Assembly (NCBI GenBank): GCA_964486065.1
Contig: CAZAKN010000006.1
Coordinates: 1-62,684, forward strand
Length of the DNA stretch: 62,684 nt
Direction of reading: 5' to 3'
Origin: an uncultured Gammaproteobacteria bacterium
Lineage (GTDB): Bacteria > Patescibacteriota > Patescibacteriia > UBA11705 > JABHMO01
The notes under the pieces were generated by a model, which was not told the DNA's origin, did not search any database, and saw nothing but the letters and a program-made list of their open reading frames with translations. Each line of letters begins with the position of its first letter. Within the stretch, counting starts at the first letter, position 1. The translations under genes and the position numbers were made by a program. Of the stretch, positions 13,583-43,134 are shown piece after piece.

Positions 13583-13616
13583 ACGGCTCTATTCATCTGA
13601 ATAGAGCCGTTTTTTA
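13583..13616 (+). terminator. Rho-independent terminator
   Basis: 11-bp stem ACGGCTCTATT/AATAGAGCCGT followed by T6. Confidence 0.8.
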
Positions 13617-13663: not shown

Positions 13664-13750
13664 TGGTGGGCCGGGGCGGATTCGAACCACCGAAGGCGCA
13701 AGGCCAGCAGATTTACAGTCTGCCCCATTTGACCGCTTTGGTACCGACCC
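13664..13750 (-). tRNA. tRNA-Tyr (GTA), long variable arm, encoded CCA
   Basis: Manual cloverleaf: acceptor GGGTCGG/CCGGCCC, anticodon loop CTGTAAA, T-arm GGTGG-TTCGAAT-CCGCC. Confidence 0.9.
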
Positions 13751-26250: not shown

Positions 26251-28836
26251 ATGGAAGATAAAATAAGCATTAAAAACGCTCGCGAACACAATTTGAAAAA
26301 TATCAATCTGGAAATTCCCCGCAACAAAATGATCGCTTTTACCGGTTTATCCGGCTCGGGGAAATCCAGCTTGGCTTTTGATACCATTTTCGCAGAAGGG
26401 CAAAGAAGGTATATTGAAAGTTTGTCCGCTTACGCGCGACAATTTCTGGGTGGCATGAGCAAACCGGATGTTGATGAAATAACCGGCCTATCTCCCGCCA
26501 TTTCCATTGATCAAAAAGCGCATAGCGCCAATCCCCGCTCCACCGTAGCTACGATCACGGAAATTTATGATTACTTGCGCGTTTTGTTCGCGAAGATCGG
26601 CAAACCACATTGCCCGCTCTGCGACACACCATTAAATAAAATGACGGTTGATGAAATGTTGGATCAAATTATCGCCCATATTCCCAAAAGAAAAGCGAAC
26701 TCTAAAGAGCTATCAGCTTTGACGATAATGGCTCCGGTAGTCCGCGGTCGCAAAGGCGAATACTATCAAATGCTTTATGATATTTACAATTCGGGATATT
26801 CGGAAGCACGCATTGACGGTAAGATTAAAAAACTGAAAAATCGCGTTACCATCAATAAAAATAAAAAGCATACCATTGAAATTATTATTGATAAAATTTT
26901 AATAGTTGATGAAAAAGATTTAAAAAACAATAAAGGTTTTCGCCAAAGATTGTCCGAAGCCATTGAAACTGCCATTGATCTATCCAACGGACTTTGCACA
27001 GTAATTTATCCTGACGGCAATGAGAAAATTTTTAGCACAGAATATTCTTGCCTGAATGACGGTTTCAGTTTTCCGGAAATTGAACCAAGACTTTTCAGTT
27101 TTAACAGTCCTTACGGTTATTGCGAAGCTTGTACCGGGCTGGGCACAAAAGGTCTGTTCAGCACGGAAGATTGTCCCGTTTGCCAAGGTAAAAGATTGAA
27201 TGAAAAAGCACTGGCCGTAAAAATAAACAATAAAAATATTTGGCAAGTAACGGATTTCACCATTAAAGAAGCTTTAAATTTTTTCAATACTTTGAAAAAA
27301 AAACTAACCGCCAAAGAAATTGAAATAGCTTCCGTGGTTCACAAAGAAATCACGAATCGTTTGAACTTCATGAATAATGTCGGCTTGCATTATTTGAATT
27401 TGAATAGGCGCGCCGGCACGCTCTCCGGCGGTGAAGCCCAGCGTATGCGATTGGCTTCACAAGTCGGCACCCGACTTGTCGGCGCGCTGTATGTCTTGGA
27501 TGAACCGACCATCGGATTGCATCAAAAAGACAATGATCAACTGGTTAAAACTTTGCGTGATCTTTGCGATATCGGTAATACTATTATCGTGGTGGAACAT
27601 GATGAAGACACTGTTTTATCAACGGACTGGGTGGTGGATATCGGTCCGGGCGCGGGAAGACATGGCGGTGAAATAACTTATTCCGGACCGCTTGATCATT
27701 TATTGATTACGGGCAAGCAATTACCCGCGCGAGCGGACAAATGCCAAACGCAAGGTAGTCAAAAATGCCTAACCGGACAATATTTACGCCATGAAAAAAC
27801 CATTCCCCTACCCGACAAACGACGCGAGGTTAATCGCTCCACGCCCATGATTAAAATTCGTGGCGCGGCCGAACATAATTTAAAAAAAATTAATGTTGAT
27901 TTTCCGCTTAACCGTTTGATTTGTATCACTGGCGTTTCCGGCTCAGGAAAATCCACGCTGATGAACGATATTCTTTACCAAGGCGTTTTCAACAAACTGA
28001 ATCGCACGCGCAAACCCGTGGGAAAACATGAGAAAATCATGGGGCTTGAATATCTGAACAAAGTAATCAAAATTGACCAATCACCGATCGGCCGTTCACC
28101 TCGCTCTAATCCCACAACTTACACGGGAGCTTGGACGCATATTCGGGATATTTTTGCCGCTACCGCGGAGGCTCGCATAAGAGGCTATAACCCTGGTCGT
28201 TTCAGTTTTAACCGACCGGGCGGTCGTTGTGAACATTGTGAAGGACGCGGTTCTTTGGAAATTGAAATGCACTTCTTGCCCAGCGTGGAAGTAACTTGCG
28301 ATATTTGCCAAGGAAAAAGATTTAACAAAGAAACTTTGCAAGTATATTACAAAAAGAAAAATATTGCCGATGTGCTTAATATGACTATTGCCGAAGCCAA
28401 AGAATTTTTCCGCGACATTCCCGCCATTGCCGACAAGCTGGTTATTTTAAGCAAAGTCGGACTGGATTACCTGACTCTCGGTCAATCCGCCAAGACTCTA
28501 TCCGGCGGTGAAGCGCAAAGAATTAAATTGAGTAAAGAATTGGCAAAAAGAGGCACGGGAAAAACTTTGTACTTACTGGACGAACCAACCACCGGTCTGC
28601 ATTATGATGATGTGAAAAAACTTTTGGAAGTTTTGCGGATGTTGACCGAATCCGGCAATACCGTAGTTATAATTGAACATAATCTTGATGTAATTAAATG
28701 TGCTGACTGGCTGATTGACCTTGGCCCCGAAGGAGGCGACCAAGGTGGTGAGTTGATCAAAGCCGGCTCTCCCGAAGATATCGCTCGTTACGCGTTCAGC
28801 CATACCGGCAAATATTTGAAAAAATATCTAAAATAA
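26251..28836 (+). CDS. uvrA: excinuclease ABC subunit A (short form lacking the insertion domain)
   Basis: 861 aa. Two ABC ATPase modules (GLSGSGKSS, GVSGSGKST, LSGGEAQR twice) and zinc modules. Only 8 aa separate CEACTGLG from CPVCQG. Confidence 0.97.
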   Translation: MEDKISIKNAREHNLKNINLEIPRNKMIAFTGLSGSGKSSLAFDTIFAEGQRRYIESLSAYARQFLGGMSKPDVDEITGLSPAISIDQKAHSANPRSTVATITEIYDYLRVLFAKIGKPHCPLCDTPLNKMTVDEMLDQIIAHIPKRKANSKELSALTIMAPVVRGRKGEYYQMLYDIYNSGYSEARIDGKIKKLKNRVTINKNKKHTIEIIIDKILIVDEKDLKNNKGFRQRLSEAIETAIDLSNGLCTVIYPDGNEKIFSTEYSCLNDGFSFPEIEPRLFSFNSPYGYCEACTGLGTKGLFSTEDCPVCQGKRLNEKALAVKINNKNIWQVTDFTIKEALNFFNTLKKKLTAKEIEIASVVHKEITNRLNFMNNVGLHYLNLNRRAGTLSGGEAQRMRLASQVGTRLVGALYVLDEPTIGLHQKDNDQLVKTLRDLCDIGNTIIVVEHDEDTVLSTDWVVDIGPGAGRHGGEITYSGPLDHLLITGKQLPARADKCQTQGSQKCLTGQYLRHEKTIPLPDKRREVNRSTPMIKIRGAAEHNLKKINVDFPLNRLICITGVSGSGKSTLMNDILYQGVFNKLNRTRKPVGKHEKIMGLEYLNKVIKIDQSPIGRSPRSNPTTYTGAWTHIRDIFAATAEARIRGYNPGRFSFNRPGGRCEHCEGRGSLEIEMHFLPSVEVTCDICQGKRFNKETLQVYYKKKNIADVLNMTIAEAKEFFRDIPAIADKLVILSKVGLDYLTLGQSAKTLSGGEAQRIKLSKELAKRGTGKTLYLLDEPTTGLHYDDVKKLLEVLRMLTESGNTVVIIEHNLDVIKCADWLIDLGPEGGDQGGELIKAGSPEDIARYAFSHTGKYLKKYLK

Positions 28837-28849
28837 CTTCTCAAAAAAA

Positions 28850-28897
28850 CGCCCCTTCATTATTTGTGAATAAATAATCTGAGCGGGGCGTTTTTTT
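28850..28897 (+). terminator. Rho-independent terminator after uvrA
   Basis: CGCCCC/GGGGCG outer stem with ATTATTT/AAATAAT inner stem, then T7. Confidence 0.7.
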
Positions 28898-28937
28898 GTT
28901 TAATTTTAAATAAATAACAATTATCTAATATTTAATA

Positions 28938-29300
28938 ATGAGAAATTATTTGTACTTATCTAAAATCACCACTCAACAGAAAGACTCAGCTATGAATAAC
29001 ATACGGAAAAATAATGCTTTGGTAATTTTGGGGAAAATCATCAAGAAAGCAAAAAGTAGAAGATGTAAAAATACAGTAGTCAAAATAAGTCACTACTTCA
29101 AGTCGCCTTTAAAGACAAAGACCAACATCTATTCGTGCCCTTGAAAAACGATGCAAGCAAGTCTTTTAAAGAAAATTTGTTGCAATGTCTCCATATCATT
29201 GATGAAACAATAACTATTCAATGGAATATGGATTTAATCCTAGCCGATATCAAATTACGACAGCTGGGGGAAGAGATTATTATCTATATTGCCATCCATT
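28938..29300 (+). pseudogene. possible frameshifted small gene (two overlapping ORFs in different frames)
   Basis: ORF 28938-29144 overlaps a second open frame at 29069-29300 that has no ATG. The overlap contains A-runs. A strong terminator follows at 29315. Confidence 0.25.
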
Positions 29301-29314
29301 AGCCTAACACTTTC

Positions 29315-29345
29315 GGAGGAAACCAACATTGGTTTCCTCCTTTTT
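29315..29345 (+). terminator. Rho-independent terminator
   Basis: 10-bp stem GGAGGAAACC/GGTTTCCTCC followed by T5. Confidence 0.8.
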
Positions 29346-29413
29346 GTTTATTTGACTGGAAAATTTTTTTGCCATATAATCAGATCACCAATAACTTTAC
29401 CGGAGGTAAGCAG

Positions 29414-32661: not shown

Positions 32662-33084
32662 ATGATTATCAATAACTATCAAGCCTTTAAACTCAAGCAA
32701 GAGCTGAATAAAGATGGCAATCGCTTAACTCGGCAAAGATTTTTAATATTGAAATATTTGCGTGGCAATAAAAATCATCCCACCGCCGAGCAAGTGCATA
32801 AACATATAAAAAAATCTTTACCCGAAATCAGTTTGGCCACGATATATCGTAATCTGCAATATCTTTTGAAACAAAAACAAATATTCACCATTAAGACTTT
32901 TGATGATAAAACTCATTTTGACGGAGAAAACATTTTTCACATGCATTTTATCTGTGAAAACTGTCACACCATAAAAAACATTTACAATATTGATGAATAT
33001 AGTTTTAAACAAGTAAAAAAATTTGGTATGGCCGGCAAAACCACGTTAAACCTATACGGGTTTTGCAATAAGTGCCAAAGTTAA
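32662..33084 (+). CDS. Fur-family transcriptional regulator (second paralog)
   Basis: 140 aa, collinear with the 31120 paralog (ATIYRNL, HFDG, CENCH, CNKCQ). Confidence 0.9.
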   Translation: MIINNYQAFKLKQELNKDGNRLTRQRFLILKYLRGNKNHPTAEQVHKHIKKSLPEISLATIYRNLQYLLKQKQIFTIKTFDDKTHFDGENIFHMHFICENCHTIKNIYNIDEYSFKQVKKFGMAGKTTLNLYGFCNKCQS

Positions 33085-33160
33085 ATATGTTATTCGGTGC
33101 CTCTCATAATTAGCTCTTTCACCACACACAGTGCCGAATAATTTTCCCAAATTAACGAAA

Positions 33161-33188
33161 ACAGCTCCGCTTTTGCGGAGCTGTTTTC
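33161..33188 (+). terminator. Rho-independent terminator
   Basis: 10-bp stem ACAGCTCCGC/GCGGAGCTGT with TTTT loop, then T4. Confidence 0.85.
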
Positions 33189-33289
33189 ATTGCCTGAATA
33201 ATAAGTTATACTTAACTTGAATCGCGGATGATTGATCGCGGATAGCAGAGTACGCAACATACCCAGTAATCTGTAAATTTTGACCAAAT

Positions 33290-34477
33290 ATGATTCCATT
33301 AGCTGAAAAAATGCGCCCTGAAAAACTCGGGCAATTCTTGGGCCAGCCGGAGATTGTCGGCAAGGACTCTTTTCTGGTTGAAGCGATTAAACGAGATCAA
33401 CTCCCCTCTCTGATTTTCTGGGGTCCCCCAGGAACGGGAAAAACAACGCTGGCCAATATCATTGCTCACGAAACAAAGTCCAAATTCATCAAACTGTCAG
33501 CTGTTTCCAGCGGTAAAAAAGATTTGATGAGCATTATTAATGATGCCAAAGCAAACCAAAGATTAGGGCAAAAAACAATTGTTTTTATTGATGAAATCCA
33601 TCGTTGGAATAAAGCTCAACAAGATACATTATTACCGTTTATTGAAAATGGAACCATTGTTTTAATCGGTGCCACCACGGAAAATCCCAGTTTTGAAATA
33701 AACTCCGCGCTCATGTCTCGCTGTCGGGTTCTGGTTTTAAAAGAATTAGATGAAAAATCTTTGATTAAAATTGTTGAAAACGCGATAAAAGACACAGAAC
33801 ATGGACTGGGAAAATTAAACTTAAAAATTGACAATACAACGATCAAAACCATCGCCCGATTGTCCAATGGTGACGCGCGCGGAGCTTTAAATATTCTGGA
33901 AACTTGCGCCGGACAGAATAGCAAAACCACGGTAAATTTGGTTAAGCAAGTAGTTCAGAAAAGTAATCTGCTTTATGATAAAAACGGCGAAGAGCATTAC
34001 AATATTATTTCCGCACTTCATAAATCATTGCGAGGTGGCGACGCTGACGCGGGGTTATACTGGTTGGTTAGAATGCTGGCCGGTGGCGAAGATCCCTTGT
34101 ATATCGCCAGAAGACTATTGCGTTTCGCTTCCGAAGATGTAGGACTGGCGGATAATTACGCGGTGGTGTTGGCTAACGCGGTTTTTGAATCTTGTCATAA
34201 AATAGGTCTACCCGAATGCAAAGTGCATTTGGCTCAATTGGTTATATATTTGGCAAAAACGAAAAAAAGCATCTCTGCTTATGAAGCCTTAAGTCGCGCG
34301 GAAAAAGATATGGAAACGCATGGCAATCTGCCCGTGCCTTTGCATCTTCGCAACGCGCCGACCAAATTAATGAAAGACCTCAGTTATGGAAAAAATTATA
34401 AATACACTCCCCATCAAGATAGCTCAGAACAGCAATATTTGCCGGATAAATTAAAAAAGGAAAAATACTATAAATAA
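33290..34477 (+). CDS. rarA: replication-associated recombination protein A (AAA+ ATPase)
   Basis: PLAEKMRPEKL, GPPGTGKTT, VFIDEIHRWNK, and a MgsA C-terminal domain (LHKSLRGGDADAGLYWL). Confidence 0.93.
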   Translation: MIPLAEKMRPEKLGQFLGQPEIVGKDSFLVEAIKRDQLPSLIFWGPPGTGKTTLANIIAHETKSKFIKLSAVSSGKKDLMSIINDAKANQRLGQKTIVFIDEIHRWNKAQQDTLLPFIENGTIVLIGATTENPSFEINSALMSRCRVLVLKELDEKSLIKIVENAIKDTEHGLGKLNLKIDNTTIKTIARLSNGDARGALNILETCAGQNSKTTVNLVKQVVQKSNLLYDKNGEEHYNIISALHKSLRGGDADAGLYWLVRMLAGGEDPLYIARRLLRFASEDVGLADNYAVVLANAVFESCHKIGLPECKVHLAQLVIYLAKTKKSISAYEALSRAEKDMETHGNLPVPLHLRNAPTKLMKDLSYGKNYKYTPHQDSSEQQYLPDKLKKEKYYK

Positions 34478-34481
34478 AAAA

Positions 34482-34502
34482 GCCCCGTCATTATGACGGG
34501 GC
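34482..34502. terminator. hairpin terminator between convergent genes
   Basis: 9-bp stem GCCCCGTCA/TGACGGGGC. T-run on the minus side, weaker on the plus side. Confidence 0.7.
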
Positions 34503-34509
34503 GAATTGT

Positions 34510-35400
34510 TTATTGATGGAAATCTATCTCCAAAAGATAAAATATGAAATCCAAATTACGATTCATGTATTTTTCCGTAACCTTCTTAATTTCATGGTTA
34601 TTCAAATAATGATCTTTGCTTGCTCGCATATACAAATTCCACAAATCACGAAAGCAATTTTCATCACAACCGTATTCTCGTTCCAAGGCCGAGAAAAACA
34701 AAGCTCCCTTGGTATGCGCGGTGAAATATTGCGGAACTTGATCCAAGGATCGCTCATTCACTCTTAATTCTTCCCAATATCGCAAAGCCGTAATATATCG
34801 CGAATCCAAATCTTCAATCTGCGAACAGATCCGATTGCCTTGCAAATATATACTGATCCCCTCATGCAACCAAGCGGTCGGAGAATCACTCCAACACCCC
34901 ACATGTACGAAATATCCCGCATTATTGGTAAAAGCATGAGCTGTTTCATGAATATCCATGCGCACATCGGATAACGCGTTAATCGCGGTTTGACCATCTT
35001 GTTTAATGCCGATAAATCCGGGAAAAGTCAGGGTAACCGCTGATGCCCCGCCCAAACTCCTGGTATCCACGCGATAGTACAACCAATTCAAAGTATGAGA
35101 TACTTTGTAATTGATTTTGATTTTCGGGTGATGACCGAGAAACCTCGACAAGCATTGCCAAGCTTTGGTTTGTTTTTCCAAGGTGGCACGCAAAATCTCT
35201 TCATCCCGCGGGCAACAAGCTGAACATGACACACTCACCCATTCATTATCCTCAATTATTTGCGAAGCTATTCCTCGCTCACAAATGGGAATCCAATGTC
35301 CCACTTTGAATTTTTGATAAATGCTTTGACATCTTTTGCTCTGCCCGGCGCAGCCGAACATCATGCCAAGAATTAAAATCAAAAAACATTTTTTCAGCAT
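34510..35400 (-). CDS. putative lipoprotein zinc metallopeptidase (HExxH, peptidase-MA-like)
   Basis: ATG at 35400 preceded by AAGGAGG. Lipobox LGMMFGC. HETAH plus a downstream WLHEGISIY glutamate motif. Confidence 0.7.
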   Translation of the reverse strand: MLKKCFLILILGMMFGCAGQSKRCQSIYQKFKVGHWIPICERGIASQIIEDNEWVSVSCSACCPRDEEILRATLEKQTKAWQCLSRFLGHHPKIKINYKVSHTLNWLYYRVDTRSLGGASAVTLTFPGFIGIKQDGQTAINALSDVRMDIHETAHAFTNNAGYFVHVGCWSDSPTAWLHEGISIYLQGNRICSQIEDLDSRYITALRYWEELRVNERSLDQVPQYFTAHTKGALFFSALEREYGCDENCFRDLWNLYMRASKDHYLNNHEIKKVTEKYMNRNLDFIFYLLEIDFHQ

Positions 35401-35497
35401 TACCGCCTCCTTGTGAATGAACAACTAACTTAGTTTATTAGCGCGTTAAATTTTTGTCAACAAAAAATCCCCGGCAATCGCGGAGATTTTTAATATC

Positions 35498-35923
35498 TTA
35501 AGCGACTTTTTTATTTTTTATCAATAACCAATGATACAAATACAGAGGCATTCCCACGATAATCATGGCCAAGCTGGTGGCTGATTCACGATGACGACGA
35601 GATTTTACCGGATCAATTTGCGAGCGTCTTTCTTTCCAATCGTTGTAATCCTGAATTATTGTTTCCAATTCCTGTTTTTCTTCAGCTGACAAAATAACTT
35701 CTCCGCTTGTGTTTTGATTATCTTCCAAAAGATTTCGCGGTTTGGCATAATAGGTGTCAAACGGTCTTTGCCAACTCAAACGAGTTTCTTCATCTGCGGC
35801 GGTAAAAACCCAAGCTTTCAAGCCCATGTCAATAAATCTCACACTGCCAATAATCAATAGAATCAAACCAACTAAAGCAAATGAATAAAGATAAATGGTT
35901 CTTAACCAAGATTGTTTTTCCAT
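35498..35923 (-). CDS. membrane protein (2 TM, extracytoplasmic loop)
   Basis: The ATG at 35923 avoids overlap with the upstream gene. No family assigned. Confidence 0.6.
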   Translation of the reverse strand: MEKQSWLRTIYLYSFALVGLILLIIGSVRFIDMGLKAWVFTAADEETRLSWQRPFDTYYAKPRNLLEDNQNTSGEVILSAEEKQELETIIQDYNDWKERRSQIDPVKSRRHRESATSLAMIIVGMPLYLYHWLLIKNKKVA

Positions 35924-35933
35924 AAATAAAATT

Positions 35934-36401
35934 TTATTTGTTTTTTTGATAAGTTTGCCAAGCAAATAACCAGTTTAACATGAGCCAAGCCAAAACCGGC
36001 AGTAAAAAGGATGCTCCGACAATTGAAATCATGCTCCAAAAATAAATGCCGGATAAAACCGTTAAAATCCACAATAGAATAAATATTACGAAAGCGCCTA
36101 TATTATGCTTGCGCCACATGAAGAAATTACCGGTGGAAAATAATGTGAAAAACAACACATAAAAACCCAAGACCAAAGACGCTTCCATTCTATTATCAAT
36201 TTGATTCCAAGTTAGCAATCCGGCGATGGTCAGCAAGGTATAATTCAAATACCAAGTGTATAAATATTTATTATCATGTATCGCTTTAATCGGTTTTGCT
36301 CTTACGGTTTCAAACCAAACCGCTCCTTCATTTGATAAATAACTGGCGATCAAAACCGCAAAAAACATAATGAAAGGAATAATAATGTAACCTAAATACA
36401 T
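35934..36401 (-). CDS. integral membrane protein (about 5 TM, Trp-rich)
   Basis: 155 aa. TspO-like size and topology, but the signature was not confirmed. Confidence 0.65.
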   Translation of the reverse strand: MYLGYIIIPFIMFFAVLIASYLSNEGAVWFETVRAKPIKAIHDNKYLYTWYLNYTLLTIAGLLTWNQIDNRMEASLVLGFYVLFFTLFSTGNFFMWRKHNIGAFVIFILLWILTVLSGIYFWSMISIVGASFLLPVLAWLMLNWLFAWQTYQKNK

Positions 36402-36410
36402 ATTGGTAAA

Positions 36411-36836
36411 TTAATTATTTTGTTCACATTCCCCCCTGTAAAATAACCATTCTTCACATTCATTACCGTTTTCAAATACGCAATATCCGACTTGTCCGCC
36501 ATCTTCGTTTTCACGCAGTTCCAATTCACCACCTTGATCCAAACAATAAGTTGAAGCCGGATTGGCAATTTCAATATTACCGTTTTCAATTTCATTCAAA
36601 TTATCCAATACTTCCACATGCAACTTTCCTTGACCATCACGACATTGTCGCGGATAACTTTCCATGACGGGAAAACCGGCATCCACGCATTCTTGAAAAT
36701 TATTTACTTGTTCATTAACCAAAGGAAGCTCTTCAATATCAACGGTTTTTTCATGTGTTAAAATTTTTACGGATAAAGCCACGGCCGAGACAACGACCAA
36801 AGCCAACATGATTATCAATATATAATCTTTTTTCAT
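36411..36836 (-). CDS. DUF333 domain protein, membrane-anchored
   Basis: ANPASTYCLDQGGELE...GYCVFENGNECEEWLFYRGEC matches the DUF333 pattern. Confidence 0.8.
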   Translation of the reverse strand: MKKDYILIIMLALVVVSAVALSVKILTHEKTVDIEELPLVNEQVNNFQECVDAGFPVMESYPRQCRDGQGKLHVEVLDNLNEIENGNIEIANPASTYCLDQGGELELRENEDGGQVGYCVFENGNECEEWLFYRGECEQNN

Positions 36837-36881
36837 AAAAAATTAAGTTTGATTTCATAAATAATTATACTATTTTTACCA

Positions 36882-37964
36882 TCACTTGGCAAAACCGGCT
36901 ATTTGTTTTTTAAGTGCCAAAATCCGTCGCAATGATTGTCTCGTTTTTACCTCGGAAAAATTTAGCGTGAGCCTCCTCCTCGCAAATTCATATTCCTCTC
37001 CCGCCCCGACATATAATAAAATATCATTTCCCGCCCCGAAAGCGAGATCGGCAGCTTGAGCCGGATCATAATTATTTTGCAAAGCGCCCATCAACATATC
37101 ATCGGTAATCAGAACTCCTTGAAACGCCAAACTATCACGCAAATAATTCAAATGAACCGCGGACAATGAGGCCGGATATTCATCCAAATCAGGAAACTGA
37201 ATATGCCCGCTCATCATCATGGCCGGACGACTTTGACTCATCAAAGAACTGAATTGTGAAACATAATCCGAATAGCTCATGCTTTTTAAATCAACACTCG
37301 GCAATTGCTTATGCGAATCCACTCCCTCACCATGATGTCCCGGATAATGTTTGGGACAAGCGATAATTCCGGCATCTTGATAACCTCTGACCATGGCCGC
37401 TCCCAGATCCGCGACTTGCCCGCGATCTCCACGGAAGACTCTGCCATATAAAAATGAATCTTGATCTTCAATGTAATCCATAACCGGCGAAAAATTAACA
37501 TTGATTCCCAGACTTTTCAATTGTGTTCCTCTTTCATAAGCGACTTGATATGCTCGTGAAACGGTGTTGAGTTCCGCTTGCGCGGTGCTTTCATACATGG
37601 AAGGCAGTCGGCTTACCAAACCACCTTCCTGATCAATGGCGATCAACAAAGGATACTCCGGATGTGGATTGGAAGCTTGAATTTGCGCTGTTAAATTTTT
37701 TATTTGTTCTTCATCTTGCAAATTATATTTCATCAATATCACGCCTCCGGCGAAACCTTGTTGCAATAAGTTTTTAGTTTGCTCGGGTAATTCATAGCCG
37801 TTAAAACCGACCATAAAAAATTGTCCCGCTTTTTGTTCCGCGGACCAATCCGGTTCTTGCCAAACCGTTTTTTCTTGCGGTTCATTAATACTAAAAGCGA
37901 ATAACAAAACAGCACCGGCTATTACCACGGCCAAAATAATTTTAAAATATTTGGATATTTGCAT
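36882..37964 (-). CDS. nagZ: glycoside hydrolase family 3 beta-N-acetylhexosaminidase
   Basis: IAIDQEGG, FSPVMD, KHYPGHHGEG motifs. N-terminal signal/anchor. Confidence 0.88.
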   Translation of the reverse strand: MQISKYFKIILAVVIAGAVLLFAFSINEPQEKTVWQEPDWSAEQKAGQFFMVGFNGYELPEQTKNLLQQGFAGGVILMKYNLQDEEQIKNLTAQIQASNPHPEYPLLIAIDQEGGLVSRLPSMYESTAQAELNTVSRAYQVAYERGTQLKSLGINVNFSPVMDYIEDQDSFLYGRVFRGDRGQVADLGAAMVRGYQDAGIIACPKHYPGHHGEGVDSHKQLPSVDLKSMSYSDYVSQFSSLMSQSRPAMMMSGHIQFPDLDEYPASLSAVHLNYLRDSLAFQGVLITDDMLMGALQNNYDPAQAADLAFGAGNDILLYVGAGEEYEFARRRLTLNFSEVKTRQSLRRILALKKQIAGFAK

Positions 37965-38087
37965 ACAACTCTATTTTATCAAATCGCAAGCGATTTTTAC
38001 AGTCAATAAAACAGCTCGTTTGACAAAAACCTCATAATAAGTTTTAATCAAAAATCAAACAATACAAAACCGGAAGGAGGTTACAGA

Positions 38088-38597
38088 GTGAAAATATTGA
38101 AGAAGTTGGACCTTGATAAAAATCAATGGCAAAAGCATAGCTATATTCGCACATTCTTCCTCGTCAACACTGAAAAACTCGAAAATTTATATGAGCAACT
38201 GAACGGCTCTCTTGAACTGAACGCGGAAAGCTGGCACCGATTCGCGAACAGTAAAGAATTGTTTAATTTGGTTTATCCGCTTATACCAAACATTTCAAGC
38301 TTTACGCTTGAAGCCATCGCCTACAGCGAACCGGTTGAATGGCTTGGTGATGAAATGAGAACCGGCGATTGTGAAGTTTATCATGCCATGCCATTTGAAT
38401 TGCATGACAACATGCAAAGACCCGATATCAGCTTTGGATTCATACAACACGCGACCAAGTGCTTTATCACCATGTTAAATCATATGTTTTTTAAACACTT
38501 ATACCAAAAACCCTTTATGATTCTGCGTGACATTCAAGGCACGGGTAGTTCTTGGGTATGTTTAAATGACGATCTGGACTATTACCAAATAGAGTAA
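38088..38597 (+). CDS. hypothetical protein (SD-led, GTG start, monocistronic)
   Basis: 169 aa. AAGGAGG lies 7 nt upstream of the GTG. Has its own terminator. Confidence 0.7.
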   Translation: MKILKKLDLDKNQWQKHSYIRTFFLVNTEKLENLYEQLNGSLELNAESWHRFANSKELFNLVYPLIPNISSFTLEAIAYSEPVEWLGDEMRTGDCEVYHAMPFELHDNMQRPDISFGFIQHATKCFITMLNHMFFKHLYQKPFMILRDIQGTGSSWVCLNDDLDYYQIE

Positions 38598-38612
38598 ATA
38601 CATCCGTGATTT

Positions 38613-38637
38613 AACCGCCAAAATTTGGCGGTTTTTT
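38613..38637 (+). terminator. Rho-independent terminator
   Basis: AACCGCC.../...GGCGGTT stem followed by T6. Confidence 0.75.
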
Positions 38638-38732
38638 ATTTTAAAAAATAATACAAATATGCTTATCAAAATCTTTACATAATCATAATATAATCACATT
38701 TCATTAATTTTCAAATTGTTTTCACGGTAAAC

Positions 38733-38764
38733 AAAAATACCTCATTTTAAAAGAGGTATTTTTA
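38733..38764. terminator. bidirectional hairpin terminator
   Basis: Stem AATACCTC/GAGGTATT flanked by an A-run and a T-run. Confidence 0.7.
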
Positions 38765-38774
38765 TCTATCCGAT

Positions 38775-40778
38775 TTATTTATGATACTTAACAGTAGTGG
38801 TAAAAACTTCAGCGACTCCGTCCAAACTTACTCTGCGTTTGGTGGAACAATTGATCACATAATTACTTTTATCAAAACACAAATCATCACCTTTACCAAA
38901 GACATCACTCAAATACCAACGATAATCATCATTCCAAAATAGTAATCCAAAAACATCGCTGGTATAAATTTTGTAACCATATACTTCACTCGGCATTTCA
39001 TGAAGAAATTTTTTTGTATCGTAAGTTGACTTCAAAACATCACGAAGATACAGAGTATTATTTCCGGCGACTTTTCTGAGCCAAAATCTGTGTCCATCTT
39101 GATAATATGCTTTGATCGCATTGAAAGATACTTTTTTAAAAGCAATATGACGACGAATAATCGTGGCGGTGGTATCATCTCCGTCCAAATAATTCATAAA
39201 TGACTTGATATCCGTCACATATTTGGAATGTTCGGGAAATTGATAAAAATGAATAGCTTCACGACCATTAACTTTAATATCGTCCAGTAAATATTTAATA
39301 TTACCTTTCGCGGTTCTAGAAGACACGCCTGATAAATTATGTTTATATTGGTCGGAATGATAATGACAATCTGATCCGATAATATTGGCCAAATCCGCCA
39401 TGACTTCAATTCTGCAATCAACACCCGCGGAACCGGCTGAACATGAATTGAATTGTTTCCATAATTTACCAACTCTTGATCCCAATTCTGAAAATTCATA
39501 TCTGCCTAGGATTGAAAACAATCGCATATACTCGGCAGATGGCGCGCAATAGTCGCCACATAAATTACAGTCACGATCAATGGTAGCCGCTTCAGATACG
39601 CTTAATTTATCATAATAATTATTTGTATTGGCTCCATATTTGCTCAATTGTCGTTTGGCGCAATTGGAATTCAAGCCGGTATTCAAAGAAAAACCGACCA
39701 CCATTCTTTTATCATAATCAGTCTTCCAAACGCTCGGCCAATCAAAATATGATTTATTGTAAGAACTTATCTTATTATTTGAAGATGAATTGGGACTTGA
39801 GCGTTGCTGGTCTTTTTCTTGCTCTTGCTTTTTTCGTTCTTCAGCTTCTTGTCTTTGTTTTTCCAATTCTTTTTTTCGTTCAAGTTCGGCCTGTCTTTGT
39901 TCAGCCAATGCATTTTGTCGAGCTTCCGCTTCACGGCGTTTTTGCTCCGCCAATTGTTCTTGCTTGGCTTTTTCGCTTTGAGATGCCAATAATTCTTGGC
40001 GTTTTCTTTTCGCTTCTTGCTTTTTTTGTTCCGCTAAACGGCGTCGCTTATCAGCTTCTTGTCTTTGCTTTTCCAATTCTTTTCGTCTTTCAAGCTCGGC
40101 CTTTCTTTTTTTCGCCAACTGTCTTTGTTTTTGTTCATGAATTTTCTGTTGTCCCAAAGCTTCTTGTTTTTTTTGTTCGGCCAAGCGTCTTTTTTCTTCC
40201 AAATAATCCTCATAACCATTGCTATTTGAATTGCCAGTTTTTTTGGCGCTACGCGTCGCCGGCACAAAAGCGGAAGTTTGATTCTGATTATTGGAATAAT
40301 ATTGATAATTCGGATCAACAGGTATTCGGTTTAAATCAGCATTACTGATCCCTAGTCCCAAACTTTTTATAATACGAAAAGCGTCAACCGGTTTACCCAA
40401 AAAATATCCTCGTGAATTTACCGGATACACATAATACGCTTCGCCTTTTGATTCAACATCCAACAAAATTTTTCCTGCCAAACGCATTGGAAATCCGTAT
40501 CTTAAATAATTATGCAATTCATCATGCCTTATTCCCACGCCGAATTCTTTCATCATAAAAAACGCGTCACTCGGCTTTCCCATGTAACATCTTTTATAAT
40601 TATCCGGATTAACATACCAAGCTTCGCCCCTTGATTCAACTTGCAATAAAATTCGTCCGCTGAGTTTTTGCCTAAGATTAGTGACCGCTTCCGCGGGGGA
40701 AGAAATCGCAAAAAAACAAACTGAAATCATTAATACCGCCATGGAAATCACTGATAATTGTTGTAATTTGAGTTTCAT
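38775..40778 (-). CDS. large secreted repeat protein (two N-terminal about 50-aa repeats, K/E/Q/R coiled-coil repeats, C-terminal globular domain)
   Basis: ATG at 40778 followed by signal peptide MKLKLQQLSVISMAVLMISVCFFAISSPAEA. Repeats GRILLQVESRGEAWYVNP... and GKILLDVESKGEAYYVYP.... RRLAEQKKQEA and AELER(R/K)KELEKQRQEA each occur twice. Confidence 0.8.
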   Translation of the reverse strand: MKLKLQQLSVISMAVLMISVCFFAISSPAEAVTNLRQKLSGRILLQVESRGEAWYVNPDNYKRCYMGKPSDAFFMMKEFGVGIRHDELHNYLRYGFPMRLAGKILLDVESKGEAYYVYPVNSRGYFLGKPVDAFRIIKSLGLGISNADLNRIPVDPNYQYYSNNQNQTSAFVPATRSAKKTGNSNSNGYEDYLEEKRRLAEQKKQEALGQQKIHEQKQRQLAKKRKAELERRKELEKQRQEADKRRRLAEQKKQEAKRKRQELLASQSEKAKQEQLAEQKRREAEARQNALAEQRQAELERKKELEKQRQEAEERKKQEQEKDQQRSSPNSSSNNKISSYNKSYFDWPSVWKTDYDKRMVVGFSLNTGLNSNCAKRQLSKYGANTNNYYDKLSVSEAATIDRDCNLCGDYCAPSAEYMRLFSILGRYEFSELGSRVGKLWKQFNSCSAGSAGVDCRIEVMADLANIIGSDCHYHSDQYKHNLSGVSSRTAKGNIKYLLDDIKVNGREAIHFYQFPEHSKYVTDIKSFMNYLDGDDTTATIIRRHIAFKKVSFNAIKAYYQDGHRFWLRKVAGNNTLYLRDVLKSTYDTKKFLHEMPSEVYGYKIYTSDVFGLLFWNDDYRWYLSDVFGKGDDLCFDKSNYVINCSTKRRVSLDGVAEVFTTTVKYHK

Positions 40779-40915
40779 ATTTTCGTATTCCTTTCTACTA
40801 TCATTTAGATAGAAATCAAACAATTTGTCAAATATTATCATATTTTAACTAAATTCATAATATCAATATTTATACTAATTTTAGACAAAAAACCTCATTT
40901 TATCCACTTCTGCTA

Positions 40916-40944
40916 TTGACATGTTTTAATTGTTGTGCTGTTAT
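40916..40944 (+). promoter_or_regulatory. putative promoter of the GC-rich intergenic transcript
   Basis: TTGACA-17 nt-TGTTAT. Confidence 0.45.
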
Positions 40945-40950
40945 GTAGTC

Positions 40951-41277
40951 ACGATTTAAGTTCTTTTATTGCGTACCATTGACCAAAACCCCTCACGCCC
41001 CACAAACACACCACGGGCGTGTACAAACGACAAAAGGAGGGCAAATGCCTCACTGGGACCCTGGCTAAATATCATACAACTCCCCTCCCCACCGACCGCC
41101 ACATCAGGTAAGCCATCTGTGTCGCTTATGTCCGCGACGCGCCAAGGCTACCTCGGATGTGGCAGGGCCAAACAGCAGGTCGTTCAACGCAATGAGAAAA
41201 TGTCCGATGACATGCCTCTCATATTGTGCGACCAAGTTTCGCCCGCCCCCCGATCACACGATCGGGGGTTTTCTTTT
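40951..41277 (+). ncRNA. candidate structured non-coding RNA, class unknown
   Basis: GC-rich island in an AT-rich intergenic region. Nested helices: 40994-41000/41015-41021; 41099-41105/41156-41162 enclosing 41106-41114/41146-41153 and 41121-41125/41134-41138; and a long hairpin at 41178-41233. A G-U pair favours the plus strand. Ends in an intrinsic terminator. Confidence 0.5.
41246..41277 (+). terminator. Rho-independent terminator
   Basis: CCCCCGATC-ACAC-GATCGGGGG followed by TTTTCTTTT. Confidence 0.85.
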
Positions 41278-41285
41278 AATAAAAA

Positions 41286-41320
41286 CACCCCGCTTGATTT
41301 CACAACGGGGTGTTTTTATT
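41286..41320. terminator. second (bidirectional) terminator
   Basis: Stem CACCCCG/CGGGGTG flanked by A5 and T5ATTT. Can also terminate the minus-strand tRNA-Thr. Confidence 0.8.
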
Positions 41321-41335
41321 TGAAAAAATAATTAC

Positions 41336-41411
41336 TGGAGCCGTCGAGCGGGATTGAACCGCTGACCTCATCCTTACCATGGATGCGCTCTACCAACTGA
41401 GCTACGACGGC
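41336..41411 (-). tRNA. tRNA-Thr (GGT), encoded CCA
   Basis: Acceptor GCCGTCG/CGACGGC, anticodon stem CATCC/GGATG with loop ATGGTAA, T-arm AGCGG-TTCAATC-CCGCT. Confidence 0.9.
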
Positions 41412-41476
41412 GAAGATTAAAACTTGAATCAACTTGAATTACACTCTTTTCAATATTTATTCAGTACTCCGCGATT

Positions 41477-42337
41477 TTAATTACCAAAATCCGCGATTTT
41501 TTCTTCGTATTCCTTTAATTTTTGATTTTCCGGATTTACCTGTCGCAATCTTTGCCAAACCTCCATTGCTTTATTCTTATCTTTCATGATTATACAAATT
41601 TGTAACAATTGATCAAGATTGCGCGGATTATTCGGTTCCAATTCATAAGCGCTGTTATAATGCTCCAAAGCTTGTTCGTTTTTTTCCATCATTTGATAAA
41701 CAAAACCCAAATCAATATGAGCGTCCGCCAATTCATGAGCATTACTCAACGCTGTGTAAGTTCTACCATGTTCATCTTTTTTCTCCACGGCTTTACTGTT
41801 TTTCTTTTCAAGTTTTAAAACAAAACCGGCTGTTTGCAAGGCTTGCTTGTAATCCTTTTGTTCTGAATAAACATCCGCCAAACCTTTGTAAGCCTTGATG
41901 CAAGCGGGATCCAAACTGATCAATTCAATATATTTTTTTTCCGCTTCTCCATAATTTTCATCTTTCACTTGCTGTTCCGCCTCTTGCAACATGGTCGCTG
42001 TTTTTTGAGTCAATGACTCCCCTTTCAACTTCGCGGACTTGCCTCTTGATTCCAATTGATATTTTCTTTCCAAAGCATAAATCTTTTTAAACAGCTTACT
42101 GAAAAAATCGCTCATTTTTTTAAACAAAGGAGACACTCCTTTTTGCAGAGCTTTTTGACTTTTTTCGGTACTCCTTTTCATGCGATCATACAACAATCTT
42201 TGTCTGACTTTGTCATGCTTCTCCTCCGGCACCGTATTCACATCCAGCAATCTTATTTTGGGGAATTTACTGATCACGATTCCCACCATAATCATGAGAC
42301 AAATCGCTATCACTATTCCCAATATAATATTCAACAT
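41477..42337 (-). CDS. membrane-anchored TPR repeat protein
   Basis: N-terminal TM helix followed by several TPR-like repeats (AEKKYIELISLDP, ALEHYNSAYELEPNNP, AMEVWQRLRQVNPEN). Confidence 0.8.
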   Translation of the reverse strand: MLNIILGIVIAICLMIMVGIVISKFPKIRLLDVNTVPEEKHDKVRQRLLYDRMKRSTEKSQKALQKGVSPLFKKMSDFFSKLFKKIYALERKYQLESRGKSAKLKGESLTQKTATMLQEAEQQVKDENYGEAEKKYIELISLDPACIKAYKGLADVYSEQKDYKQALQTAGFVLKLEKKNSKAVEKKDEHGRTYTALSNAHELADAHIDLGFVYQMMEKNEQALEHYNSAYELEPNNPRNLDQLLQICIIMKDKNKAMEVWQRLRQVNPENQKLKEYEEKIADFGN

Positions 42338-42369
42338 ATTCCCAATTCTAGCAAAATTCACTTGGATTA

Positions 42370-43134
42370 TCAAGCCCTGCGGGCGGCTTCAACTATTTCT
42401 TCCATTTCCGTAATTTGAGTGGAAGCTTTGCCAATCAACATCCCGTCCAAAAAATCACCTGCCCAATATTCATCACAATTTTCCGCGTTAACACTGCCAC
42501 CGTAAAGAAATGCGGTTTTCTCTTCAAAGTATTTTTCGGAAAAAAGACCGGCAATATTCCTTTTAACCAATCTTTGCACTTCACTTAGCGCATCTACCGA
42601 CATATTATCGCCCGTTCCGATCGCCCAAGCTGGTTCGTAAGCTATTAATAATCTGTTTTCCGGCAAATATCCACATTTATTCAAAACATTCCCGATTTGT
42701 TTGGTCAAAACATTTGCCCATTTTCCGTTTTCTCTTTCTTCTTTCAATTCGCCGATACACAAAATCGGTAATAAGCCGTATTCATAGCATTGATCCAATT
42801 TGTTTTTTATCAAATCATCATTTTCATTTAAACCGCGCCTCCTCTCCGAATGTCCGATAATAGCGTAACGACAACCGGCTCTTCTCAACAAATCCGCCGG
42901 CGATTCTCCAGTGGACGCCATTTTGTCCGTAGCCGAAGCGTTCTGCGACGCCATTTGCAAAGGCGAATCATTAAGTAATTTTTTTATCTCATACAAATAT
43001 AACGAATTGGGAGCCAAAACAATATCCAAATTTTTTATTTTATTAAACTTGCTTAAGTAATCATGCGCCAAAGTCACGGTCTTTGTATGGTTTAGATAAT
43101 TTTTCCAATTACCGATCAATATTTTTTTCATCAT
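42370..43134 (-). CDS. tpiA: triosephosphate isomerase
   Basis: IGNWK, IIGHSERR, AYEPAWAIGTG, LYGGSV motifs. Confidence 0.93.
   Translation of the reverse strand: MMKKILIGNWKNYLNHTKTVTLAHDYLSKFNKIKNLDIVLAPNSLYLYEIKKLLNDSPLQMASQNASATDKMASTGESPADLLRRAGCRYAIIGHSERRRGLNENDDLIKNKLDQCYEYGLLPILCIGELKEERENGKWANVLTKQIGNVLNKCGYLPENRLLIAYEPAWAIGTGDNMSVDALSEVQRLVKRNIAGLFSEKYFEEKTAFLYGGSVNAENCDEYWAGDFLDGMLIGKASTQITEMEEIVEAARRA

What the first reader, a model, noticed from the sequence alone, without database searches (positions are those of the whole stretch)
40916..41320. Promoter-to-terminator GC-rich intergenic transcript with nested helices: candidate structured RNA of unknown class
The 0.5-kb gap between a secreted-protein gene and tRNA-Thr contains a conspicuously G/C-rich segment of about 330 nt in an otherwise AT-rich spacer. 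It is preceded by TTGACA-17-TGTTAT and closed by two consecutive intrinsic terminators. The first, CCCCCGATC/GATCGGGGG plus a U-run, is plus-strand specific. Hand-folding gives the following helices:
- A 7-bp helix at 40994-41000/41015-41021.
- A three-tier domain: CCACATC/GATGTGG (41099/41156) encloses AGGTAAGCC/GGCTACCT (8 bp, one bulge), which encloses GTCGC/GCGAC.
- A long hairpin of about 56 nt at 41178-41233 with 20 bp in four segments. One G-U pair in it would be a C-A mismatch on the other strand.
The RNA also contains an SD-like AAGGAGGG (41034-41041) followed by a 7-codon ORF (MPHWDPG). That SD can pair either locally or with an anti-SD-like CCCTCC (41083-41088). I could not match it to RNase P, tmRNA, SRP, 6S or common riboswitch signatures by eye.
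Basis: partly seen in the sequence, partly recalled or inferred. Interest (0 to 1): 0.7.

Follow-up and report, generated by a model that had tools for sequence, protein, structure and literature searches.

The report
Orphan structured small-RNA candidate
A 330-base, unusually G+C-rich and strongly folding non-coding stretch next to a tRNA gene in an uncultured Patescibacteria genome looks like a small RNA gene, but it exists in only this one genome in all data searched, so it cannot yet be shown to be functional.

Summary
Window 40951-41277 (+) is a G+C-rich (~0.55), non-coding segment. It holds two very stable stem-loop domains (z -5.9 and -4.0) and ends in a plus-strand intrinsic terminator. 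It matches no Rfam family, and no reading frame has a protein relative. Three claims are weaker than stated. The promoter has a perfect -35 box but a -10 box (TGTTAT) lacking the key A. The SD/anti-SD pairing is no better than chance. The second terminator is bidirectional and most likely belongs to the convergent tRNA-Thr. The element is an orphan. Searches of about 100 syntenic Patescibacteria loci and k-mer scans of genome, metagenome and viral collections found no homolog. Phage and plasmid BLAST found none. The only other copies, in two other assemblies, are 100% identical. Covariation therefore cannot be tested. The tRNA-Thr 3' flank is hypervariable in relatives. Several of them carry unrelated promoter-to-terminator structured RNAs there, some with conserved Met-X-Asp-stop mini-ORFs. 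Best reading: a lineage-specific small RNA of about 325 nt, with a C/A-rich single-stranded 5' half and a rigid 3' half. Its function is unproven. Interest is modest.

The parts
40916..40944 (+). Promoter-like site: -35 TTGACA (40916-40921), 17-nt spacer with TG at 40936-40937 (extended -10), and -10 TGTTAT (40939-40944)
   Evidence: Read from the sequence. The promoter scan did not call it because position 2 of the -10 box is G. TTGACA plus a >=4/6 -10 box is common by chance in this window.
40951..41277 (+). Predicted transcript of about 325 nt. The 5' end is inferred from the -10 box. The 3' end lies in the U-run after T1.
   Evidence: MFE -112 kcal/mol, z -5.5 including the terminator. No Rfam match. 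No coding signal.
40975..41097 (+). C/A-rich, G-poor 5' domain (A 40, C 48, G 20, U 15 of 123 nt). It is mostly unpaired and includes the C-rich runs ACCCCU and CUCCCCUCCCCACC.
   Evidence: Composition and strand skews. Unpaired probabilities >0.7 for 40975-40993, 41001-41014, 41022-41028, 41065-41076 and 41090-41097.
40994..41021 (+). Hairpin H1: a 7-bp G+C-rich stem (CACGCCC/GGGCGUG) with a 14-nt CA-rich loop
   Evidence: Pair probability 0.98. z -2.9.
41034..41068 (+). SD-like AAGGAGGG (41034-41041) and a 7-codon mini-ORF, AUG 41045 to UAA 41068 (MPHWDPG). The spacing from AGGAGG to AUG is only 4 nt.
   Evidence: Sequence and translation. Pairing with CCCUCC 41083-41088 appears in the MFE, but the segment is not more structured than shuffles.
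41098..41163 (+). Three-tier stem-loop domain (8 + 5 + 3 + 8 bp, apical loop UUAUGUCC)
   Evidence: Pair probabilities 0.87-1.0. z -5.9, 0 of 200 shuffles as stable.
41165..41244 (+). Long interrupted hairpin (4 + 4 + 6 + 3 + 6 + 5 bp, apical loop CGAU)
   Evidence: Pair probabilities mostly 0.94-0.99. z -4.0.
41247..41277 (+). Intrinsic terminator T1: a 9-bp stem (7 G-C pairs), loop ACAC, then UUUUCUUUU. Specific to the + strand.
   Evidence: Terminator scan. -18.4 kcal/mol, z -4.3.
41281..41317 (.). Bidirectional terminator T2 (AAAAACACCCCG / CGGGGUGUUUUU). It is most likely the terminator of the convergent tRNA-Thr and a backstop for the + strand transcript.
   Evidence: Inverted repeat I1. 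-22.4 kcal/mol on + and -23.7 on -. It lies 19 nt from the 3' end of tRNA-Thr (41336-41411, - strand).

Best explanation
This is an independently transcribed, lineage-specific (orphan) small non-coding RNA gene of about 325 nt on the + strand. It sits in a hypervariable islet at the 3' flank of tRNA-Thr(GGU) in a Falkowbacteria-like Patescibacteria genome.

Shown:
- It is non-coding.
- It is far more G+C-rich than any other intergenic DNA in the window.
- Its 3' half forms two rigid stem-loop domains, followed by a strand-specific intrinsic terminator.
- Its 5' half is a C/A-rich, G-poor, largely single-stranded region.

Inferred:
- It is transcribed from the TTGACA/TG-extended promoter.
- It acts in trans as a regulatory RNA. 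The 3' hairpins and terminator would give stability. The accessible C-rich stretches (ACCCCU, CCCCUCCCC) would pair with G-rich Shine-Dalgarno regions of target mRNAs. This is how the C-rich sRNAs of low-GC Gram-positive bacteria (RsaE/RoxS type) work, as recalled from my own knowledge and not tested here.
- The SD-like AAGGAGGG with its mini-ORF is more likely a ribosome-binding or stabilising element, or a chance feature, than a peptide gene.

The confidence of 0.5 is for 'a genuine transcribed structured RNA gene'. I rate the specific anti-SD mechanism at only about 0.15.
For: - GC is 0.49-0.58 in a spacer of 0.17-0.29. Other intergenic regions have a median GC of 0.31.
- Fold z is -5.0 for the core without the terminator, and -5.9 and -4.0 for the two domains.
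- These windows rank in the top ~1% of 1252 windows scanned across the contig.
- The helices are well defined, with pair probability >0.9.
- A + strand-only terminator lies exactly at the end of the structured part.
- There is no Rfam match.
- There is no protein relative in any frame.
- The locus is identical in an independent Logan assembly spanning 32775-41379, so it is not an assembly artefact.
- Sister lineages carry other promoter-to-terminator, G+C-rich, strongly folding RNAs (z -6.3 and -6.5) at the same tRNA-Thr flank. RNA genes of this kind are therefore a habit of the clade.
- The 5' half is 72% A+C with high unpaired probability.
Against: - No homolog was found, so there is no covariation and no evidence of purifying selection. 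The only other copies are 100% identical.
- The -10 box lacks the conserved A, and the promoter is not above chance.
- There are no expression data.
- The SD/anti-SD pairing is at chance level.
- Recently acquired foreign DNA would also be G+C-rich in this genome.
- No convincing target was found among the translation start regions in the window, though that test was crude.
Confidence: 0.5

Rival explanations
1. This is a non-functional or decaying relic of horizontally acquired DNA at a tRNA integration hot spot. A G+C-rich fragment of an integrative element, possibly once an RNA gene, was left beside tRNA-Thr. Its promoter is now degraded (TGTTAT is one transition away from TATTAT).
For: - The tRNA-Thr flank is hypervariable among relatives. 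It carries partial tRNA copies, G+C-rich cargo genes, and tyrosine-recombinase-like genes inserted at or next to the tRNA in L017 and L032.
- Two Logan assemblies break inside this tRNA, at window 41365-41379.
- The element is unique to one genome.
- The -10 box is defective.
Against: - No integrase lies nearby, and there is no direct repeat of the tRNA 3' end anywhere in the window (one search covers 34000-41480).
- The fragment matches no phage, plasmid, protein or relative.
- A random fragment would not be expected to fold at z -5 to -6 and end precisely in a strand-specific terminator.
- The neighbouring genes have ordinary composition.
Confidence: 0.25
2. This is a divergent, inverted member of the same fast-evolving RNA group that sits at the tRNA-Thr flank in sister lineages. 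Those RNAs carry a strong SD and conserved Met-X-Asp-stop mini-ORFs, upstream of a TrmB-family gene.
For: - The position is the same, immediately 3' of tRNA-Thr.
- The size is similar (330-520 nt), and so is the build: a TTGACA -35 box, a CA-rich leader, AAGGAGG plus a short ORF, G+C-rich hairpins and a terminator.
- These RNAs evolve fast. L021 and L025 are nearly identical over the first ~170 nt and at the terminator, while the middle is scrambled.
Against: - The defining AUG-NNN-GAY-stop signature is absent from the window.
- A profile HMM of the group does not hit the region, and nhmmer finds nothing in either direction.
- A covariance model of the core of this element hits none of these RNAs.
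- The orientation relative to the tRNA is opposite, there is no TrmB gene, and the SD-AUG spacing is 4 nt rather than 6-7 nt.
Confidence: 0.1
3. This is an mRNA for a micro-peptide. The RNA exists to express the 7-residue ORF MPHWDPG, or is a dual-function RNA.
For: AGGAGG lies 4 nt before the AUG, preceded by an A-rich leader. Sister-lineage RNAs at this locus have conserved mini-ORFs.
Against: - The SD-AUG spacing is shorter than the usual optimum.
- By my rough estimate, an SD followed by AUG in 330 nt has only about a 4% chance occurrence. That is a weak signal.
- The peptide has no relatives, and most of the RNA (250 nt of hairpins) would be unexplained.
Confidence: 0.07
4. This is a protein-coding gene (the 120-codon frame 40969-41331 or another frame), or a cis-regulatory leader or riboswitch.
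For: An open 120-codon frame exists.
Against: - The frame has a TTG start without an SD and reads through two terminators.
- It has no hit in 5.8 billion or 1.84 billion proteins, or in Pfam.
- No gene follows on the + strand. The next feature is a convergent tRNA, so there is nothing to regulate in cis.
Confidence: 0.03

Closest known systems
Stand-alone bacterial trans-acting sRNA genes ending in an intrinsic terminator, especially the C-rich sRNAs of low-GC Gram-positives (RsaE/RoxS type)
   Same: It is an intergenic unit with its own promoter-like site and a Rho-independent terminator. It is non-coding. It has accessible C-rich stretches that could pair with GGAGG Shine-Dalgarno sequences, and stable 3' hairpins.
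   Different: It is three times longer than RsaE/RoxS and has no sequence or covariance-model similarity to any of them (Rfam at E<=10). It has no conservation at all, and its targets and expression are unknown. The resemblance is architectural and recalled from knowledge, not tested.
G+C-rich intergenic structured-RNA candidates found by 'GC-IGR' analysis in A+T-rich genomes (Stav et al. 2019, PMC6429828)
   Same: It is a long intergenic region whose GC content is far above the intergenic background, with extensive predicted structure.
   Different: Those candidates are accepted only when several homologs show covariation. This element has no homolog.
Promoter-to-terminator RNAs with Met-X-Asp-stop mini-ORFs at the tRNA-Thr/TrmB locus of sister Patescibacteria
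   Same: It occupies the same genomic slot next to tRNA-Thr(GGU). It has a similar size, GC content and fold strength, and an SD plus a short ORF near the 5' end.
   Different: It shares no sequence or model similarity with them. The mini-ORF signature is absent, the orientation is opposite, and there is no TrmB neighbour.

Membership tests
Any Rfam 15 family (RNase P, tmRNA, SRP, 6S, riboswitches, large ncRNAs such as OLE/GOLLD/ROOL/HEARO, RsaE) | Covariance-model score at or near the family's gathering threshold | tested here: not met
   At gathering thresholds only tRNAs are found in the window. At E<=10 on 40700-41500, only terminator-driven noise at 41200-41335 and two sub-threshold hits of 12-14 bits appear.
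Terminator-ended stand-alone sRNA gene | Intrinsic terminator on the same strand at the 3' end | tested here: met
   T1 41247-41268 plus a U-run, + strand only.
Terminator-ended stand-alone sRNA gene | Recognisable promoter at the 5' end | tested here: inconclusive
   The -35 box is perfect and there is a TG extension, but the -10 box TGTTAT lacks the conserved A. The site is not called by the scan and is not above chance.
Terminator-ended stand-alone sRNA gene | Detected transcript of defined size | not testable with these tools
   No expression data are available.
Structured ncRNA class (GC-IGR standard) | Homologs in other genomes with compensatory base changes | tested here: not met
   No homolog was found in 102 related loci, or in phage, plasmid, GTDB-genome, JGI-metagenome or IMG/VR scans. 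The only other copies are identical. This is absence of data, not evidence of broken pairs.
Structured ncRNA class (GC-IGR standard) | GC content and fold stability well above the intergenic background | tested here: met
Met-X-Asp-stop mini-ORF RNAs of sister Patescibacteria | A strong SD followed at 6-7 nt by AUG-NNN-GA(C/U)-stop, usually twice per RNA | tested here: not met
   A regular-expression scan finds the signature only in L010/L011/L012/L028, L020, L021/L022 and L025. It also gave two chance matches, one inside a tRNA in L013 and one in L079. None is in the window.
Met-X-Asp-stop mini-ORF RNAs of sister Patescibacteria | Sequence or profile similarity to known members | tested here: not met
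   The profile HMM of L020/L021/L025 gives no hit in 40900-41340. nhmmer finds no hits.
Met-X-Asp-stop mini-ORF RNAs of sister Patescibacteria | Location immediately 3' of tRNA-Thr(GGU) downstream of the TIM-TPR genes | tested here: met
   The synteny M16 peptidase - TIM - TPR - tRNA-Thr is conserved. In the window, however, the RNA is convergent with the tRNA, not co-oriented.
Protein-coding gene | An ORF with start signals and protein-level relatives | tested here: not met
   The ORF runs through two terminators.
Remnant of a tRNA-integrated mobile element | Direct repeat of the tRNA 3' end (att site) and/or an integrase nearby | tested here: not met
   The window holds no second copy of the tRNA 3' 25-mer with <=3 mismatches. 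No relevant repeat lies in 34000-41480. None of the ten ORFs scanned between 26.2 and 40.8 kb has an integrase domain.
Tandem-array RNAs (CRISPR, TIGR, ToxI-like) | Tandem or interspaced direct repeats | tested here: not met
   No repeats lie within 40916-41320.

The most novel reading that the evidence does not exclude
The 3' flank of tRNA-Thr(GGU) in Falkowbacteria-like Patescibacteria may be a dedicated, rapidly turning-over 'RNA cassette' slot. Different lineages hold different self-contained, highly structured RNAs of 330-520 nt there, each with its own promoter and terminator. Many of these engage ribosomes through strong SD sites and tiny ORFs (Met-X-Asp-stop). The window's element would be one such cassette, and this would be a previously undescribed class of exchangeable regulatory or conflict-related RNA genes in ultra-small bacteria.
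Probability: 0.15. Interest if true: 0.65.

Novelty: new member of a known kind. Interest (0 to 1): 0.3.

Why it matters
To my knowledge almost nothing is known about regulatory RNAs in Candidate Phyla Radiation (Patescibacteria) bacteria, and two literature searches here found nothing on the subject. These organisms have tiny genomes and few classical regulators. If this element is a real, expressed 325-nt structured RNA with no relatives, it would be an example of lineage-specific RNA innovation in them. Together with the unrelated RNAs at the same tRNA flank in sister lineages, it would point to a hot spot where RNA genes are gained and replaced. As it stands it is a single-genome prediction. 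Its value is as a target for metatranscriptomics, not as an established finding.

Tried and rejected
- **Known RNA family.** Rfam at gathering thresholds and at E<=10 gave nothing. Rfam on 21 related loci gave only tRNAs, so no known RNA habitually sits in this slot.
- **Protein gene.** The 120-aa frame has no relatives. Four frames have no Pfam hit. tblastx against all related loci found nothing.
- **SerC pseudogene.** The 19-mer GAGAAAATGTCCGATGACA matched 11 diverse genomes. Six of these matches lie antisense in a gene I recognised as the phosphoserine aminotransferase gene serC, over its motif DMSSDIFS. Only 7 residues match, so this is chance.
- **Homologs by synteny.** Twelve contig look-ups and a 79-locus genome scan around the neighbouring TPR gene were made. 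The tRNA-Thr is conserved but the element is not.
- **Homologs via the other neighbour.** The 688-aa secreted protein has only N-terminal-domain relatives. Its cluster mate lies on a contig 100% identical to the window.
- **Homologs by k-mer.**
  - One metagenome scan gave 4 chance hits.
  - Four viral scans gave nothing for two k-mers and only short chance matches for the other two.
  - Two genome scans gave none for the first pattern and only short matches for the second.
- **Phage and plasmid BLAST.** No matches.
- **Covariance model of the 151-nt core.** It hit only itself in 648 kb.
- **Paralogs in the window.** None.
- **att repeats and tandem repeats.** None.
- **Target prediction.** A scan against start regions in the window was uninformative. 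The ORF set was crude.
- **Literature.** Searches for Patescibacteria ncRNAs or the source runs found nothing relevant.

Full report
**What is there.**
- The window is a 40% GC contig. The relatives of its proteins place it in Patescibacteria near Falkowbacteria.
- The neighbouring secreted-protein gene is on the - strand. Its longest ORF runs 38775-40841, and the called 667-aa product starts at 40778.
- tRNA-Thr(GGU) is also on the - strand, at 41336-41411.
- Between them, an A+T-rich spacer (GC 0.17-0.29) is followed by about 330 nt at GC 0.49-0.58.
- In a rough annotation of the window, other intergenic regions have a median GC of 0.31 and never exceed 0.44. This region is therefore both one of the longest and by far the most G+C-rich intergenic stretch.
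- Long, G+C-rich intergenic regions in A+T-rich genomes are known to be enriched for structured RNAs (PMC6429828).

  - the 7-bp hairpin 40994-41000/41015-41021 (P 0.98);
  - the three-tier domain 41098-41163 (P 0.87-1.0);
  - the long hairpin, with 20 bp in four segments as described, extended by two more 4-bp segments to 41165-41244;
  - the terminator stem 41247-41255/41260-41268 (P 0.93).
- Against dinucleotide-preserving shuffles, the core without the terminator has z = -5.0 on the + strand and z = -2.9 on the - strand.
- Element by element, the three-tier domain scores -5.9, the long hairpin -4.0, T1 -4.3 and the small hairpin -2.9.
- In a scan of the whole contig with 150-nt windows, the windows over this element rank in the top ~1%.
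- The structural observation is therefore real and well beyond chance.

1. The promoter.
   - The -35 box is a perfect TTGACA at 40916-40921. The spacer is 17 nt and a TG lies at the extended -10 position.
   - However, the -10 hexamer TGTTAT has G at the position of the nearly invariant A, so the consensus scan does not report it.
   - TTGACA occurs 37 times in the window, about the chance number. Twelve of those have a 4/6 or better -10 box at the right distance.
2. The SD/anti-SD idea.
   - The 6-bp pairing of GGAGGG (41036-41041) with CCCUCC (41083-41088) is in the MFE.
   - The segment 41030-41092 folds no better than its shuffles (z +0.6), and its pair probabilities are low.
3. The second terminator.
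   - The second 'terminator' (41281-41317) is a perfect bidirectional hairpin, equally stable on both strands.
   - It lies 19 nt from the 3' end of the convergent tRNA, so it is best assigned to the tRNA.
   - The element's own terminator is T1, the only one called by the scan, and it is + strand specific.

**Not coding, not a known RNA.**
- Rfam 15 gives nothing but tRNAs at gathering thresholds for the whole window.
- At E<=10 on the local 800 nt it gives only terminator-driven noise.
- The 120-codon frame has a TTG start without an SD and reads through both terminators.
- That frame has no relative among 5.8 billion proteins by word-indexed search. It has none among 1.84 billion representatives read in full by HMMER. 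It has no Pfam hit, and neither do three other small frames.
- tblastx of the region against all fetched related loci finds nothing.
- A 19-mer from the long hairpin matched 11 diverse genomes. Six of these matches lie antisense in a gene I recognised as the phosphoserine aminotransferase gene serC, over its motif DMSSDIFS. Only seven residues match and nothing else aligns, so this is a chance hit, not a pseudogene.

**Search for relatives.**
- The neighbouring TPR-protein gene (41477-42373, - strand) has relatives at <=52% identity. Their contigs keep the order M16 peptidase - TIM - (aldolase) - TPR - tRNA-Thr(GGU).
- A profile-based scan of one genome per GTDB species added 79 loci.
- In none of about 100 loci does nhmmer, blastn or tblastx find the element.
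- A covariance model of its 151-nt structural core finds only itself in 648 kb, including the rest of the window.
- BLAST against phage and plasmid collections finds nothing.
- Exact k-mer scans of GTDB genomes, JGI metagenomes and IMG/VR returned either nothing or 18-25-nt chance matches, verified by local blastn.
- The other neighbour, the 688-aa secreted protein, has relatives only for its N-terminal domain.
- The only other contigs carrying these genes (Logan assemblies of SRR7048223 and SRR7048224) are 100% identical to the window.
  - One of them spans 32775-41379. This confirms that the element is truly linked to its upstream gene and to the tRNA 3' part.
  - Both Logan contigs break inside the tRNA.
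- The element is therefore an orphan in all data that could be searched. Covariation, the usual proof of a structured RNA, cannot be evaluated in either direction.

**Context: a hypervariable tRNA flank.**
- What lies 3' of tRNA-Thr differs in almost every relative:
  - nothing (L006, L024, L029, L044);
  - G+C-rich protein genes (L013, L015);
  - tyrosine-recombinase-like genes, inserted in the tRNA in L017 and immediately after it in L032;
  - partial tRNA copies (L010, L013, L015, L025, L030-L033);
  - tRNA arrays in more distant lineages.
- Several lineages have, in this same slot, other self-contained RNAs:
  - L008 has TTGACA-17-TATACT, about 520 nt and a terminator (z -6.5).
  - L010/L028 has TTGACA-17-TATAAT, about 330 nt and a terminator (z -6.3).
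  - L020 and L021/L025/L124 carry further examples.
- L010, L020, L021 and L025 share a peculiar signature: a strong SD followed at 6-7 nt by AUG-NNN-GA(C/U)-stop.
  - It occurs twice per RNA in L020, L021 and L025. In L010 it occurs once, with a second copy behind a weaker SD.
  - It is found nowhere else in about 700 kb except two chance matches.
  - The middle codon varies while Asp-stop is kept.
- These RNAs sit upstream of a TrmB-family gene and are co-oriented with the tRNA.
- The window's element shares the slot, the size, the composition, and an SD plus a short ORF. It differs in several ways:
  - It lacks the signature.
  - It is not hit by a profile of the group.
  - It is inverted relative to the tRNA.
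  - It has no TrmB neighbour.
- It is therefore analogous to these RNAs, but membership was tested and not met.

**How it most likely works.**
- The anatomy divides into two halves.
  - The 5' half (40975-41097) is 72% A+C with only 16% G. It is mostly unpaired and contains C-rich runs and one small hairpin.
  - The 3' half is two rigid domains plus a terminator.
- This is the usual build of a trans-acting base-pairing sRNA. The C-rich single strands are what low-GC Gram-positive sRNAs of the RsaE/RoxS type use to occlude Shine-Dalgarno sequences.
- That resemblance comes from my own knowledge of those systems. It is an inference and was not tested here.
- A crude duplex scan against start regions in the window gave no convincing target.
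- I put 0.5 on 'a genuine transcribed structured RNA gene' and about 0.15 on this particular mechanism.
- The main rival (0.25) is a non-functional relic of acquired DNA at an integration hot spot.
  - For it: the defective -10 box and the uniqueness of the element.
  - Against it: the absence of att repeats or an integrase, and the improbability that a random fragment folds at z -5 to -6 and ends in a strand-specific terminator.

**Verdict.**
It is weakened in its promoter, SD-switch and double-terminator parts.
- The interpretation, 'candidate structured RNA of unknown class', survives the two refutation tests that could be run, but it gains no positive comparative support.
- It is best filed as a new, single-genome candidate of a familiar kind: a stand-alone sRNA gene.
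- Interest is modest (0.3). The more intriguing lead is the recurrent, non-homologous RNA cassettes at this tRNA flank in sister lineages.

Noticed in passing
L021:6800-7232, L025:3210-3700 (= L124:3700-4195), L020:2390-2792, L010:6715-7100 (= L028:5212-5597): These are promoter-to-terminator, G+C-rich RNAs between tRNA-Thr and a TrmB-family gene in sister Patescibacteria. A strong SD is followed by a 3-codon ORF, Met-X-Asp-stop. It occurs twice per RNA in L020, L021 and L025. In L010 it occurs once, with a second copy behind a weaker SD. The middle codon varies while Asp-stop is kept. There is no Rfam match. In about 700 kb of loci the signature is otherwise seen only as two chance matches.
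   Followed up: partly
L008:6190-6740: A 520-nt structured transcript (TTGACA-17-TATACT promoter, terminator, z -6.5) lies in the same tRNA-Thr/TrmB slot. It has an SD plus a 14-codon ORF (MATGGRFFSTWDNN) and is unrelated in sequence to the others.
   Followed up: partly
window 12915-13532 (+): A 205-aa ORF with GC 0.55-0.59, far above the contig's 0.40. It has a GGAGG SD, an ATG start and its own terminator (about 13590-13615), and it lies next to tRNA-Tyr (13664-13750, - strand). It looks like a real gene of atypical composition, either highly expressed or acquired.
   Followed up: no
L017:1847-2894, L032:5355-5725; partial tRNA copies in L010:6383-6440, L013:2954-3010, L015:5935-6035, L025:1230-1290, L030:4560-4640: tRNA-Thr(GGU) appears to be an integration hot spot in this clade. 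Tyrosine-recombinase-like genes lie in the tRNA (L017) or immediately after it (L032), and many loci carry truncated or interrupted tRNA copies beside the intact gene.
   Followed up: partly
L006:6013-6052, L008:5985-6085, L024:4594-4634: A short hairpin unit (…TTCGC…GCTACGAATGGCGC(A/C)GCC…) is found directly after tRNA-Thr. It is duplicated in tandem in L008 and may be a small repeat element or a processing or termination signal.
   Followed up: no
L021:5090-5495 (- strand), L025:1500-1935, L124:1905-2340: About 400 nt of G+C-rich sequence with no called gene lies between a 175-179-aa gene and a bidirectional terminator, convergent with tRNA-Thr. L124 has a further ~600 nt with no called gene (GC 0.35-0.53) upstream of that gene (2880-3500). 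These may be long UTRs or more RNAs.
   Followed up: no
window 41365-41379: Two independent Logan contigs of the same population end and begin inside the tRNA-Thr gene with a 15-nt overlap. This suggests a branch in the assembly graph at the tRNA, that is, flank variation within the community.
   Followed up: no
window 38734-38749 and 40887-40902: A 16-nt direct repeat, AAAA(T/A)ACCTCATTTTA, brackets the 688-aa secreted-protein gene. It may be chance in A+T-rich DNA.
   Followed up: no
window 28837-29368: This is the longest other gap without an ORF of 70 or more codons in the window (532 nt, GC 0.31). A strongly folding 150-nt window lies at its start (28801-28950, - strand, z -6.3).
   Followed up: no
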